Positions 22,526-59,540 of a DNA stretch of 64,000 nt are shown here, one piece after another. Position 1 is the first letter of the stretch; the number at the start of each line of letters is the position of its first letter. The notes beneath the pieces were generated by a model. It had not been told where the DNA came from and did no database searches. It worked only from the letters and a program-made list of their open reading frames with translations. This DNA comes from Eledone cirrhosa (lineage: Eukaryota): the NCBI GenBank assembly GCA_964016885.1, contig OZ024743.1:52576001-52640000 (forward strand), given 5' to 3'. The translations under genes and the position numbers were made by a program.

Positions 22526-23014
22526 TTATCTGTCGGATGTTTTTAGACATCACCCAACTAATTATGATTCATTTTGTGCTGTAGATATAATCATACTGTG
22601 TATAGATGAGTTTGTATAAAGTTGATTCAAAGTTGATCTTTTGATGAGTGATTAAGTTGGAGGCGGAGAACGAGTGACACCATGTCACGTCACAGATGAG
22701 GGATTTACCTCCTTCGTTGAGAAAATCGGGTAAAAAAGGTGTACAAAGAAGTCTGCGAGGAATCGAACCCCGCATCTGCCGGGTGAGTGCAGAAATTAAT
22801 GACAAAGAGCCGCTGGGACAATTTCAATACACGTTTCAAATTTTTCCAAGGCTTCCTAAGTCAATCACTTTGTTCACACACACACCTTGTGCCAAAAGTA
22901 AATACATATATATATATATATGAGTCCCGGGTTCAATGGGGAGGTAATCACAGTAAGTAAAGTACTCAATGTATTAGTAGAGTGTATACAACAAATTTAA
23001 TATATTTAATATAT

Positions 23015-23079
23015 AAATGGCTTCTATTTCCTGATGATTTCCTTCAAATGAAACAGTTCTTGTCCTGTAGAAGCCATTT
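23015..23079 (+). ncRNA. Hammerhead motif in a 180-bp element (22921-23100) within (TA)n
   Basis: CTGATGA tttccttcaaat GAAA cagttcttg TC; distal pairing aaatggcttcta/tagaagccattt, but bases next to the core are unpaired. Confidence 0.55.
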
Positions 23080-23769
23080 TTTATATTAAATTTGTTATAT
23101 ATATATATATATATATATATATATATATATATATATATATATATATAACAAATTTTAAAGATTCCTATATCTTAAATTAAATTAAAGAATCCTTTATGTT
23201 TTGTGTGTATATATTATATACGTAGTTAGATATGTTATGTAAGTGTATATATATTTATAAGTATTTTTGTAGTTCTCTAGCAATATATGGATTTCTTAAT
23301 GTATAGATCCCAATTTTTAATATATTGATCTCAATTTTTAAATGATTAACTAAATATCTAATCATATTTAAACAATGATTAATTTCTCATATTATATATG
23401 TATATTCCATTCATGATTAACATCTCTAATTTTATTTATTCATTTCATCTCAATTGTTAAGTTAACTCAACAAGATATGACTTAGAGTTTTCGTTCTCTC
23501 CCCTTCTCTCTGTCTCCTCTCTCTCTATATATATCTTTCTCTCTCTGTTGTTTTGGTCTCTCTCTCTCTCCCTCTTTTCTCTCTCTCTCTCTTTTTCTCT
23601 CTTTCCTTCTTTTTCTTTCTCTGTAACCCAACGGCTTATTTTAAAAATAAAAATATCCAATACTAATAATAATATAAGTAAACAACTCCACTATCCGGGG
23701 GCTTCCAACAGTAATGGTTGCATTTTTTAAGGGTATGTCAATATTTATTTATAAAACTGATCTATATTA

Positions 23770-23834
23770 TATTTTGTCTGATGAAAGCACACCATAATTT
23801 AACTTGGTGTCCTTGAAATATGTATATTGAAATA
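23770..23834 (+). ncRNA. Minimal type-I hammerhead motif (family A)
   Basis: tattttgt CTGATGA aagcacacca..tggtgtcctt GAAA tatgta TA ttgaaata; same 3' flank as the 29 kb and 31 kb copies. Confidence 0.65.
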
Positions 23835-24451
23835 AATATGGTTTTATAAATATAGTTTCCATTTGTTAATATCGTATATATATATATATATATATATATA
23901 TATATATATATAAATACACACACACAGACACACCCCATAGTAAGTTTCAGAGACAATGGGAGAGAGTAAAATCTGAAGGCCAACCAAGAGATTTTGAAAG
24001 AAAAACTGTAACAGTTTAAATAGCAGATGGAAAAGAGAGACATTTAAGTTAAAGTTAAACAATGAGAGAGTTTCTTAGACATATATGTCAACCATAACAT
24101 TCCAGTGTAAAGATAGGAAATAATGTCAGAGGGAAATATAACTGTAAAAGTCGTATAAAACATAATGGAAAGTAGTGTGAATACACACACACACACACAC
24201 ACACACACACACACACACACACACACACACACACACACACACACACACACACACACTCACACTCACACTCACACTCACACACACACACACACACACACAC
24301 ACACAGAGACACACACACAGACACCCCCCCACACACACATACATGTAATATACATTTATTTTACTGCTTTTTTTTCGGAAGCATGTGTATATTATGAAGT
24401 TTGTGTGCTTTTCGTGTGTGTGTGTGTATATATATATATACACACACACAC

Positions 24452-24865
24452 AGAGGTACCTGGCGTTGCTCGGGTATTAAATAGCAGTTATGTATACCAT
24501 TTATGTCAATACTTCAGTGCTGCTTCAAAAACTATACTTTTACAAAATCATCGGCTTTTTCCCAAAGGGGGTTCCTGCCCCCAGGGGTCTCCTACTCAAT
24601 ATGTGCCAATTCACATTCATCTGTAGAACAAACGAAGCCCATGTGTCAAGTTTTGTGAAAATCGGTTGCGAACTCCAGAAGTTATGACGTTTTGTTGCAC
24701 TGCAGTGCTTCAGTCGACTCCAAGGAGGCGGTTGAAGGGGGTTATCTGCCGGGAGGCCCTATAATCAATATCTGGAAAAATGAAGGTGTCCATGACCATC
24801 CGGAGTACATCAGTAACCTATGTCTTAAGTTTGGTGAAAATACTGTAGAAATGCATAAGGCTTAC
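24452..24865 (-). mobile_element. Helitron-like fragment (3' end at left)
   Basis: Minus strand cccgagcaacgccagg hairpin motif shared with 58441 and 21385. Confidence 0.5.
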
Positions 24866-57500: not shown

Positions 57501-57605
57501 ATGTGTATATCTTTGTATGTATGTGTGTATATGTGTATATGTGTGTATGTCTGTGTGTATGTATGTATATGTGTGTATGTCTGTGTGTATGTATGTATGT
57601 GTATG
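54557..57605. repeat. ~3-kb satellite built from (TG/TA) dinucleotides, main unit ~30 bp
   Basis: Unit gtgtatatgtgtatatgtgtgtatgtctgt and variants; source of the 1000-aa C/V/Y/M ORFs. Confidence 0.95.
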
Positions 57606-57756
57606 CATATATATGAATCATATGGGAACATGCGATTATAAACAGGATGTCCCCCAAAAATATATACACATTTCAATATGCATTCTAATAAATATTGCCT
57701 GTACAGGTAATCAAAGTGTGTATACATCCTTTTGGAACACCTTGTGTGTGTGTATA

Positions 57757-58468
57757 TCATAATCTATAAAGCTCAGTGTGTGGTCATGCTCCTTCGTTAT
57801 AGAAATCTACGATATAGAATTTCTTCAATTGAAATTTACAATTCAGTAATCAAAATAGTTTCGATTGCGTCTTGACGCGGATCATTTTTTCAATTTCACC
57901 CACAATTACGCAAAAAATAGATAAAACTCAATATTTTACGATTTTTCTCTGTCATTTAAACTGCTAAACTCTTTCCACTACCATTCAAAATCTATACAAC
58001 TTCATACTTTCTGCTACTTTCTCTTTCCAAGCTTGATGGTGATACTGTCCGTTCACACCACTCCCTACTGTCTTAAATTTAGAAAACACATATCCTCTAT
58101 GAGGTTACTAAACCCGCTAGAAACAGCAGCTAACTCTCCCCCATATCACACCACTCCCTACTGTCTTAAATTTAGAAAACACACAGACAACCATGCAGAA
58201 CAACTCCATCGCAGCTCTGTTGTTCGGATGGCATCGTCTACGCGCGTGTTGCGCAAGTACTGTGAAACAATAAATTTCAACACTTTTTGCACAGAGATAA
58301 TATCCATAGGCGAAACTACAATTGTCACTGCTGGCGCAGCTCATGCTTCCAGGTCTGCAATTCATTCACCCAGTGCCTGGCAGACAAAAAAGTGGTGCCA
58401 TAAAATGGGTGGTGCAACCTAACTTTGGTAACTTAATGACCCCGAGCAACGCCGGGTTTTAATGCTAG
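57757..58468 (+). mobile_element. Non-autonomous Helitron
   Basis: A|TCATAATCTATAAAG start, cccgagcaacgccggg subterminal hairpin, CTAG|T end. Confidence 0.75.
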
Positions 58469-58836
58469 TATATATATATATAGGACTATATATATATATA
58501 TATATATATATATATATATATATATATAAGTTTAATCGGGAGTAGCGACAGTATGTAAGGAATTCAATACATAAACAGTTCTAGTCCTGTAGAAACCATT
58601 TCTATATTAAATATATATATATTAGTATGGAGGCAGTCAAAACCAGTTAGACCATTACTCACCAGAATACTTGATACTGGCATAGTAGAGTGGGTAATAT
58701 GAAAAAGTTGGGATCCCGACGGCTGAGCTCCTGCCGTTTCAACAGCTAGATCCGAACTGATCTAGCTATTGAAACGGTCGGAGCTCAGCCGTCGGGGTCC
58801 CAACTTTTTCATATATATATAATATATATATATATT

Positions 58837-59540
58837 ATTAGGGTAAATATTGATGCAATTCAATTCAAGCACTCAACGTACTTTTTCCACATAGGAGTGA
58901 CGGAGTAAATATCGAATAAGGAAAAGCGAAGTAGTTTCAGATGTTCAAGTCCTTTAATAATAATGCTGTGATATATATTTCAATGACGACACTGGCCACA
59001 CTGTTCTGTGTGCGAGTGTCGTGGCATCATCAGACAGCTTGTTACCAATTCTCACTCTTAACTTCCAATGTAAAACCATGATACCTAGAATTAAGTTTAT
59101 TTTCTCTTATGAGTTGATGGTCAGTCGTACTGTCCACGCTTGGTGAGAGGTAGTATTGTGACCTGTAAAAACTGACACTCTCCCATCCCCTCTGGCTTTC
59201 GGCTGACTGCCACAGTCGGGATGGGTAGCAGTAAACTATGGTACAGGCCTAGGTGGGCCGTTGAATTTCGTTGAAATCTGCGCAGACCGGTGGGGGTGAA
59301 TTGGTACTCACAAGGGAACGGATGAAGAACCCAAAAGCACACACTTCATCCGTTCCTATGTCGATTCAATTTGGATTGCCTCGGAAACATAACCTTATTA
59401 TGTAACAAGCTGTCTGATGATGTCAAGACACTCGCACACAGAACAGTGTGGCCAGTGTCGTCATTGAAATATATATATCACAGCATTATTATTAAAGGAC
59501 TTGAACATCTGAAACTACTTCGCTTTTCCTTATTCGATAT
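58837..59540. mobile_element. Inverted-repeat element (~135-bp arms, ~355-bp spacer) with hammerheads at 58965-59038 (-) and 59409-59484 (+)
   Basis: gctgt CTGATGA ..gacact..agtgtc.. GAAA tatata(ta) TC acagc on both strands; (TA)n flanks. Confidence 0.85.

What the first reader, a model, noticed from the sequence alone, without database searches (positions are those of the whole stretch)
22921..58911. Shared TYGAGTRCT motif in the 3' extension carried by only one arm of the palindromes
Seen: one arm extends ~65-90 bp beyond its partner. Read in the sense of that arm, the extension contains (T)YGAGTRCT in otherwise dissimilar families: agtactca 22961, agcactca 29003, agcactcg 31061, agtactca 36697, agcactcg 45688, tgagtgct 46787 (plus-strand arm) and agcactca 58868. 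It lies ~30-65 nt from the (TA)n junction. Family A short arms stop at about the same point (aatatcgt at 23875 and 29450). Inference: there are two defined 3' ends and a conserved cis signal, possibly recognised by the trans-acting RT/endonuclease.
Basis: partly seen in the sequence, partly recalled or inferred. Interest (0 to 1): 0.75.

Follow-up and report, generated by a model that had tools for sequence, protein, structure and literature searches.

The report
Paired hairpins mark Penelope retroelement ends
The short motif is half of a small conserved bulged hairpin that sits a few bases past each of the two places where copying of Hydra-type Penelope jumping genes starts, so it is probably the unmapped signal that creates these elements' one-sided 'tail'.

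Summary
The motif is at all seven named places, 33-62 nt from (TA)n, in the long arm of head-to-head hammerhead-bearing Penelope-like (PLE) insertions. The one-sided extension is the known PLE 'tail' between two reverse-transcription starts. New here: the motif is the 3' half of a bulged hairpin, RCTC-[variable stem]-YN-GAGY-(RCT). Where another copy shows what follows an element end, RCTC begins 5-13 nt on in 17 of 18 cases (background 4.5%), and 42 of 51 inner-stem cells pair (24 shuffled). The hairpin also lies in autonomous Hydra-clade PLEs: published coral and sea-cucumber consensus ends, and 7 of 7 long ends in animal contigs of G001. Three other-clade ends lack it. A second hairpin follows the long end by 5-8 nt in three elements measured here (one in this window) and in one published consensus, so tail length matches hairpin spacing. 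Best model (inferred): an RT-endonuclease dimer docks on the two hairpins and primes one cDNA from each nicked strand. No function was tested, and the window has no coding remnant. Earlier scan notes saw head-to-head PLE stubs in other genomes; those listed do not mention this hairpin.

The parts
18080..19737 (.). Family G two-armed insertion of a 600-nt non-coding unit; long end at 18080 (minus arm), short end at 19737 (plus arm); tail 168 nt
19155..19215 (+). G hairpin 1 (ACTC...TT-GAGC), 8 nt after the short-end position (5 after TA microhomology); also 18179-18239 on minus
19320..19336 (+). G hairpin 2 (ACTC, 2-bp inner stem, TC-GAGC), 5 nt after the long-end position; also 18729-18745(+) and 18649-18665(-)
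18988..19077 (+). G hammerhead-like motif with the U3-A8 core variant (second copy at 19579); by eye
   Evidence: variant described in PMC4209133
22921..23095 (.). Family B two-armed insertion, tail 79 nt on the minus arm; hammerhead core at 23031(+) in the short arm only
22961..22983 (-).
29894..29915 (-). Second family B tail, hairpin GCTC...CT-GAGT with a 3-bp inner stem; homology to 22921 by eye
26713..27551 (+). Family H partial tandem (522-nt unit) with hammerhead cores at 26746 and 27268; ends short at 27551
27038..27127 (+). H hairpin 1 (27038-27068, 8 nt after the end position) and a small second RCTC...GAGC (27113-27127), 75 nt apart; long end not seen
27967..28229 (.). Family F two-armed insertion, tail 71 nt; hairpin 28006-28029(-) with compensatory GCTC/GAGC, 4-bp inner stem, TA bulge
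28941..29449 (.). Family A palindrome, tail 90 nt; hairpin 29003-29024(-); hammerhead cores 29129(-) and 29351(+)
30999..31470 (.). Family A palindrome, tail 83 nt; hairpin 31061-31083(-)
45626..46578 (.). Family A two-armed insertion, tail about 81 nt; hairpin 45688-45711(-); short arm carries hammerhead sequence absent from the long arm
23615..23874 (+). Older family A copy in tandem context: upstream tail remnant, hammerhead core 23778, short end 23874; no clear second hairpin after the tail remnant
35835..36575 (.). Family I two-armed insertion, tail 94 nt; hairpin 35878-35923(-) GCTC...TC-GAGC-CCT
41866..42344 (.). Family I two-armed insertion, tail 99 nt; hairpin 42251-42296(+)
36652..36830 (.). 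Family C palindrome, tail 80 nt; hairpin 36697-36723(-)
58622..58811 (.). Family C palindrome, tail 78 nt; decayed hairpin about 58666-58691(-) (AAGT for GAGT)
42409..42497 (.). Family C-like insertion whose long arm keeps only about 40 distal tail bases (by eye)
46623..46831 (.). Family E palindrome, tail 67 nt on the plus arm; hairpin 46772-46794(+), 4-bp inner stem, 1-nt bulge
58835..59537 (.). Family D two-armed insertion, tail 77 nt; hairpin 58868-58906(-); hammerhead cores 59033(-) and 59414(+)
61542..61662 (.). Family K two-armed insertion, tail 51 nt, WITHOUT the RCTC/GAGY hairpin (exception)
33876..33884 (+). Orphan exact motif 73 nt before (TA)24, no 5' strand upstream; possibly a long arm truncated inside the hairpin (unresolved)

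Best explanation
These are non-coding 3' ends (short non-autonomous units or 5'-truncated stubs) of Penelope-like retroelements that use a Hydra-clade-type cis signal and insert head-to-head into (TA)n. SHOWN: the motif is the 3' strand of a bulged hairpin, 5'-RCTC-[2-7 bp variable stem-loop]-YN bulge-GAGY-3', usually followed by RCT. The short end lies 5-13 nt (2-7 nt after removing TA-phase microhomology; 11 in one case) upstream of hairpin 1. Where the sequence beyond the long end can be seen, a second hairpin lies 5-8 nt past it, just before the ORF start in autonomous copies. The tail is therefore hairpin 1 plus the spacer to hairpin 2. INFERRED: the hairpins fold in the sense RNA of a tandem, circular or read-through transcript. 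A dimer of the RT/GIY-YIG protein binds one hairpin per subunit and nicks both strands of (TA)n. Each 3'-OH primes cDNA a few bases upstream of its hairpin, often with 2-4 nt of TA pairing. The subunit on hairpin 1 makes the short arm; the subunit on hairpin 2 makes the long arm, copying hairpin 1 but never hairpin 2. The two 5'-truncated cDNAs are joined at the centre, often in self-complementary hammerhead stems, giving a long+short palindrome.
For: Window junction scan: 103 (TA)n junctions, 31 with a continuing homologue, 13 of these followed by RCTC...YN-GAGY at offsets 5-10; the other 18 are internal TA runs, 5' heads, SINE or microsatellite continuations, low-complexity matches and one mis-registered duplication (sorted by eye). 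One continuation per family: 17 of 18 have RCTC at offset 5-13 (window 10 of 11, G001 7 of 7) vs 4.5% background. With a fixed 2-nt bulge, 42 of 51 inner cells pair vs 24.2 when partners are shuffled (p about 2e-5) and 13-26 when slid. The outer pair covaries: A-T 5, G-C 9, G-T 1, A-C 2, Fisher p=0.035. G001 animal contigs: of 21 Hydra-type endonuclease ends with a hammerhead, 7 of 7 long ends have the hairpin and 0 of 8 short ends do; of 6 without a TA run, 1 has it; 0 of 3 ends of another endonuclease type have it. YN-GAGY-RCT near (TA)n has the full hairpin in 10 of 13 cases vs 8 of 45 elsewhere, p=1.5e-4. Published Hydra consensus ends read by eye: clear in Hydra-2_Amil and Hydra-2_Ajap, variant in Hydra-1_Crog. 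Six 9-mers occur 7 times in that supplement, 4 at Hydra termini and 3 away from record ends in other PLE records. Second hairpin after the long end, predicted in the notebook before it was looked for: window family G +5 nt, L106 +8 nt then ATG, L098 +6 nt then ORF, Hydra-1_Crog leader +6 nt. Hydra-1_Ajap has two hairpins 61 nt apart in its leader. In G the long end is 99 nt past hairpin 1 (33-65 nt elsewhere) yet still 5 nt before hairpin 2. 14 of 14 two-armed insertions picked by eye in the window are long+short (13 resolved by script). PAc initiates internally at two sites, cuts and extends both strands, is modelled as a dimer, and needs RNA downstream of its start site (PMC11167929).
Against: No biochemical test. 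No Hydra-type coding remnant in the window (tblastn E<0.1 empty), so clade assignment here rests on the cis features. The hairpins are thermodynamically weak: the full bulged form is in the minimum-energy fold for 3 of 8 stretches, z from -3.1 to +1.3. Family K lacks it. Family G's outer pair is A-C in the sense strand. Families E and H fit a different bulge size. The family A tandem context at 23615-23730 shows no clear hairpin 2; none is seen in the Hydra-1_Obim leader, and Hydra-1_Amil is degenerate. Hairpin 2 is seen directly in only 4 elements. One G001 insertion is short+short (L102 12615-16408) against 4 long+short. In the window alone the test is not significant (6 of 10 vs 0 of 4, p=0.085), and the metagenome test gave p=0.06 (2 of 3 vs 2 of 21). 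Families are related, so the p-values overstate independence; non-Hydra families of G001 were left out of the set, and B and K were added by hand.
Confidence: 0.62

Rival explanations
1. One-hairpin ruler: hairpin 1 alone fixes both starts, one just upstream and one about 35-45 nt downstream; the second hairpin is an incidental duplicate.
For: In G001 the hairpin-to-TA distance is tight, 33-44 nt. No hairpin 2 in the family A tandem context.
Against: Family G (99 nt) and family A (65 nt) break the fixed distance, and G's long end sits 5 nt before hairpin 2. L106 and L098 have hairpin 2 at the same offset as hairpin 1 has from short ends.
Confidence: 0.13
2. The hairpins are RNA-processing signals: a nuclease or terminator makes two RNA 3' ends just upstream of them, and RT then primes at true RNA ends as in LINEs.
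For: Genomic ends alone cannot separate RNA cleavage from internal priming. PAc RNA-seq read ends coincide with its start sites.
Against: PAc initiates internally on an intact in vitro RNA whatever its 3' extension. That is a different clade, so this is indirect.
Confidence: 0.1
3. The motif acts in DNA, as a palindromic or cruciform site recognised by the GIY-YIG endonuclease to resolve the integration intermediate.
For: GAGYRCTC is near-palindromic. The D. virilis tail was needed for endonuclease recognition of plasmid DNA (as reported in PMC11167929). PMC8557442 ascribes the tail to endonuclease-mediated resolution.
Against: The two central bases are complementary in only 4 of 17 cases, whereas the stem partners covary. 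The bulge and the trailing RCT are strand-specific.
Confidence: 0.09
4. Fold-back: only the long cDNA is primed; it folds on itself and is copied back until the protein-bound hairpin 1 blocks it, giving the short arm.
For: Perfect palindromes with 1-3 nt at the centre; the short end abuts hairpin 1.
Against: The short arm holds element sequence missing from the long arm at 22921, 42409, 45626/46300 and family G (later deletion cannot be excluded). It does not explain hairpin 2.
Confidence: 0.04
5. Chance, or neutral shared ancestry of tails.
For: The 8-mer count alone is not significant; the descriptor was first read off the window.
Against: It held in independent contigs and published elements from other phyla, with compensatory changes and a fixed offset, while the flanks show no blastn similarity between families.
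Confidence: 0.02

Closest known systems
Hydra clade of EN+ Penelope-like elements (Craig et al. 2021, PMC8557442; passages and parts of the supplement read)
   Same: (TA)n targets, type I minimal hammerhead near the 3' end, inverted 5'-truncated arm, one-sided tail; the same bulged hairpin in the consensus ends or leaders of 4 of 6 Hydra families (2 clear ends, 1 leader pair, 1 variant).
   Different: Window copies are non-coding. Tails are 51-168 nt, not 30-40. The passages read describe no conserved tail motif or hairpin.
PAc, Poseidon element of Anolis (Frangieh et al. 2024, PMC11167929; parts 1-2 of 4 and passages read)
   Same: Two internal RT start sites flanking the tail; both strands cut and extended; dimer model; protein-binding RNA element placed near the start sites but not mapped.
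   Different: PAc starts inside an AC-rich stem-loop within the ORF. Whether it has the RCTC/GAGY hairpin could not be checked: Fig. S2 holds no text and the .gbk file is unreadable here.
Metazoan non-LTR retrozymes (PMC7229834 passages; bioRxiv 10.64898/2026.07.22.740005 part 1 and passages)
   Same: Short non-coding hammerhead units, partial tandems, proposed dependence on PLE enzymes (families G, H, A).
   Different: Here dispersed head-to-head insertions in (TA)n with defined long and short ends. 'Hairpin' has 0 occurrences in either main text.
Conserved 3' stem-loop of eel LINE UnaL2 and its SINE (PMC1636434, search listing only); L1 twin priming (recalled)
   Same: An RNA stem-loop shared by autonomous and non-autonomous partners and read by the RT; two primers making an inversion.
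   Different: LINE stem-loops lie upstream of the priming site and are copied. Here each hairpin lies downstream of the start it marks, so the last one is never copied, and the two arms overlap.

Membership tests
EN+ Penelope-like element insertion unit | Inverted 5'-truncated copy adjacent head-to-head, with a one-sided tail | tested here: met
   14 two-armed insertions in the window; tails longer than the published 30-40 bp
EN+ Penelope-like element insertion unit | Minimal type I hammerhead near the 3' end | tested here: met
   Core motifs by pattern in A, B, D, E, F, H, U3-A8 variant in G; no Rfam hit at gathering score; cleavage untested
EN+ Penelope-like element insertion unit | ORF with telomerase-like RT and GIY-YIG endonuclease | tested here: not met
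   No such ORF or remnant in the window; the copies are non-coding ends
Hydra clade (window elements) | RT/EN phylogeny and motifs RWK, DKT, CxCX5C, no CCHH | not testable with these tools
   No coding sequence in the window and no whole genome held
Hydra clade (window elements) | Insertion into (TA)n | tested here: met
   Ends abut (TA)n or derived microsatellites
Hydra clade (comparison element L106) | RWK-like and DKT-like motifs, CxCX5C linker, C-terminal GIY-YIG with CxxC and CxH, under 3 kb, hammerhead, (TA)n flanks | tested here: met
   RWR, NKT, CxCX5C, CxxC and CxH read from the two ORF pieces; 2.6 kb (motifs); no tree was built
Non-LTR retrozyme | At least two consecutive tandem units each with a complete type I hammerhead | tested here: inconclusive
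   G (1.7 units) and H (1.6 units) each carry two same-strand cores, but units are partial
Non-LTR retrozyme | Expression as circular RNA | not testable with these tools
   No RNA run available to lay

The most novel reading that the evidence does not exclude
Hydra-clade PLEs and their non-autonomous parasites carry a two-hairpin RNA ruler. Each bulged RCTC/GAGY hairpin docks one subunit of the RT-endonuclease dimer and sets a priming site about 5 nt upstream of itself. One RNP therefore primes both nicked target strands, which explains the PLE tail, its one-sidedness and the head-to-head inversion, and defines a roughly 100-nt cis tag conserved from cnidarians to echinoderms and arthropods.
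Probability: 0.5. Interest if true: 0.82.

Novelty: new variant of a known kind. Interest (0 to 1): 0.7.

Why it matters
How PLEs choose two internal start sites and why most insertions have a tail on one side are open questions: the one in vitro study located the protein-binding region only to within about 150 nt, and the clade survey calls the tail's origin a likely endonuclease effect. A short, covarying, position-coupled hairpin pair gives exact mutational and spacing predictions for an existing assay. It also gives a diagnostic for non-coding Hydra-type elements that lack any ORF. PLE RTs are the sister group of telomerase, so how they register primer and template is of wider interest.

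Tried and rejected
Rfam at gathering score: no hit. No whole genome held, so no genome-wide count in the host. Viral contigs: 0 pattern matches and no endonuclease relative. Metagenome pattern scan: 38 loci, 24 distinct, most of them chance; only 3 passed a strict hammerhead test and the hairpin association was p=0.06, so it served as a lead (L009), not as proof. My first reading of L039's two hairpins as a natural pair was dropped: it is better read as a partial tandem of two ends. A guess that 34006-34740 held a degraded RT was dropped: no Hydra-type match. Splice-donor reading dropped: the base before the motif's GAGT core is T, C or A preceded by T or C, never the GT of GTRAGT. Relaxed hairpin descriptor without position: 44 hits in the window, many chance; the test there (27 of 30 paired) was partly circular and was replaced. 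No RNA holder listed. Reads laid on 30985-31276 are RAD stacks and contigs, so counts are not copy numbers. Literature searches found no description of the hairpin; the library lacks most subscription papers (Arkhipova 2006, Pyatkov 2004 not read), and PAc figures and the .gbk file could not be read. No structure or complex prediction was run.
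Full report
Observation. The window is repeat-rich animal DNA with an ORF that looks like an exon, LINE fragments and many (TA)n runs. The SINEs look like octopus SINEs to me, but that is recalled and untested. All seven motif sites exist, 36-65 nt from GAGT to the next microsatellite, inside a 67-90 nt extension carried by one arm only. Two further exact matches exist, at 33876(+) and 41256(-). The count alone is modest: 8 vs 1.5+-1.3 for the 9-mer and 9 vs 5.6+-2.3 for the 8-mer in 150 shuffles. 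The position is not: 8 of 9 lie 30-80 nt before (TA)n, against 6.7% of positions. The seven sites belong to five blastn families.

What the elements are. They are head-to-head pairs of 3' ends with minimal hammerhead cores (no Rfam hit) and no coding remnant. An inverted truncated arm and a one-sided tail are the published signature of EN+ PLEs (PMC8557442 passages; PMC3846280 passages). For the Poseidon element PAc the tail is the stretch between two internal RT start sites; the protein cuts and extends both strands and is modelled as a dimer (PMC11167929 parts 1-2 and passages). I picked 14 two-armed insertions by eye; all are long+short (13 resolved by script, tails 51-168 nt). A systematic scan found symmetric pairs in the window only at TA runs inside elements, in a low-complexity satellite and in low-score matches. 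Reads from the same species show the family A short end recurring in other copies (7,694 and 8,744 loose ends in two RAD runs; these are stacks, not copy counts). Among the 40 listed substitutions (20 more not shown), those in the hairpin fall in the bulge and loop, none in the stems.

The motif is half of a hairpin. Upstream of GAGY lies a complementary RCTC, enclosing a variable inner stem and a 1-2 nt bulge that starts with a pyrimidine. An unbiased scan took all 103 (TA)n junctions and asked what follows in homologous copies that run on. Of 31 with a continuation, 13 show RCTC...YN-GAGY at offsets 5-10. The other 18 are internal TA runs, 5' heads, SINE or microsatellite continuations, low-complexity matches and one mis-registered duplication (sorted by eye). 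With one continuation per family and fixed rules, 17 of 18 have RCTC at offset 5-13 (background 4.5%), 42 of 51 inner cells pair (shuffled 24.2, slid 13-26), and the outer pair is A-T 5, G-C 9, G-T 1, A-C 2 (p=0.035). The DNA-palindrome alternative holds in only 4 of 17. Caveats: families are related; B and K were added by hand; non-Hydra families of G001 were left out; K has no hairpin; and the full bulged fold is the minimum-energy structure in only 3 of 8 stretches, so the argument rests on covariation and position, not stability.

It belongs to Hydra-type PLEs. In the supplement of PMC8557442 (searched and read in context, not whole) the consensus ends of Hydra-2_Amil and Hydra-2_Ajap carry the exact hairpin, Hydra-1_Crog a variant and Hydra-1_Amil a degenerate form; Hydra-1_Obim and Hydra-1_Ajap end short. 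Six motif 9-mers occur 7 times in that file: 4 at Hydra termini, 3 away from record ends in other PLE records (line breaks may hide some). A metagenome pattern scan gave 38 loci, 24 distinct, mostly chance, p=0.06 for the hairpin. One of them, L009, is a GIY-YIG C-terminus with hammerhead and hairpin tail. It led to genome handle G001, a bin holding animal contigs with 28 such endonuclease matches; one family nearly matches the Acropora consensus end. There, of 21 Hydra-type ends with a hammerhead, 7 of 7 long ends have the hairpin, 0 of 8 short ends do, and 1 of 6 without a TA run does. Of 3 ends of another endonuclease type, none does, although that family also has long and short ends. Other hammerhead families there that lack the hairpin were not assigned to a clade.

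A second hairpin marks the long end. Two hairpins 61 nt apart in the Hydra-1_Ajap leader led me to note the prediction that each hairpin fixes one start. It was then met in the window: in the tandem family G element the short end is followed by hairpin 1 and the long end, 168 nt further, by hairpin 2 at +5 nt. In G001, L106 is a 2.6-kb (TA)n-flanked element with Hydra diagnostic motifs and one frameshift; its 3' long end is repeated in its leader, followed at +8 nt by hairpin 2 and then the ATG. L098 shows the same at +6 nt for another family, and the Hydra-1_Crog consensus starts with a variant hairpin at +6. Family H has two RCTC...GAGC units 75 nt apart, but its long end is not in view. Against: no clear hairpin 2 in the old family A tandem or the Hydra-1_Obim leader, and one G001 insertion is short+short against four long+short; five further pairs in that list were not examined.

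Mechanism. Shown: hairpin conservation, covariation, a fixed offset from short ends, and a second hairpin after four long ends. Inferred: RNA folding, protein binding, one dimer serving both hairpins, and twin priming from both nicked strands with 1-4 nt (once 8 nt) of TA-phase microhomology. Short arms that hold sequence missing from the long arm (22921, 42409, 45626/46300, G) argue against simple fold-back. The main rivals are a one-hairpin ruler, RNA cleavage at the two sites, and DNA-level recognition.

Novelty. Eight searches and word searches in five papers found no description of this hairpin. Subscription papers and the PAc figures and sequence file were not readable, and could bear on this. 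Earlier scan notes list head-to-head PLE stubs in other genomes as a known pattern; none listed mentions the hairpin. Verdict: a known element type with an apparently undescribed, clade-wide cis element that makes the tail question directly testable.

Noticed in passing
window 34006-34130 (-), 38003-38071 (-): Two (TA)n-abutting ends share a different conserved word (AAGCGTGAACYTAATAT) 50-70 nt before the junction and lack the RCTC/GAGY hairpin; 34006 has a hammerhead with a CCGATGA core. Possibly the end signal of another PLE clade.
   Followed up: no
window 17453-17660 and 28741-28908 (-): Two copies of a single-armed family ending at (TA)n with a variant hairpin (ACTC, 3-bp inner stem, CT, CGGT); the outer stem has a mismatch in both copies.
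   Followed up: partly
window 18988 and 19579 (+): Hammerhead-like motif with the U3-A8 core variant, in a very young (about 100% identical arms) 600-nt non-coding unit.
   Followed up: partly
window 22990-23030, 45770-45800: Long arms of B1 and A3 are 5'-truncated within a few bases of the predicted hammerhead cleavage site, as if RT ran off a self-cleaved RNA; other long arms run through it.
   Followed up: no
window 31823-33957: 2.1-kb insert between (TA)n runs with a hammerhead end on the left, an internal 500-nt tandem duplication (32304-33315) and the orphan motif on the right; may be one element.
   Followed up: partly
L039:423-457: In a non-Hydra PLE, stem I of the hammerhead is itself GCTC/GAGC preceded by TT, resembling the tail hairpin's outer stem and bulge; coincidence or shared origin unknown.
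   Followed up: no
G001 (L039-L145): A bin filed as a bacterial MAG contains many animal contigs with PLEs and LINEs, i.e. host contamination.
   Followed up: partly
window 5677-5994 (-): Cysteine-rich ORF with a hydrophobic N-terminus, looks like an exon of a somatomedin-B-type protein (recalled likeness, not searched).
   Followed up: no
window 11700-13800 (+), 49200-51150 (-): Degraded non-LTR retrotransposon ORF2 fragments of two types.
   Followed up: no
window 46848-47120, 36240-36375: SINE copies split by (TA)n runs at nearby positions, one with a 22-nt inverted duplication on both sides of the run (46889-46974).
   Followed up: no
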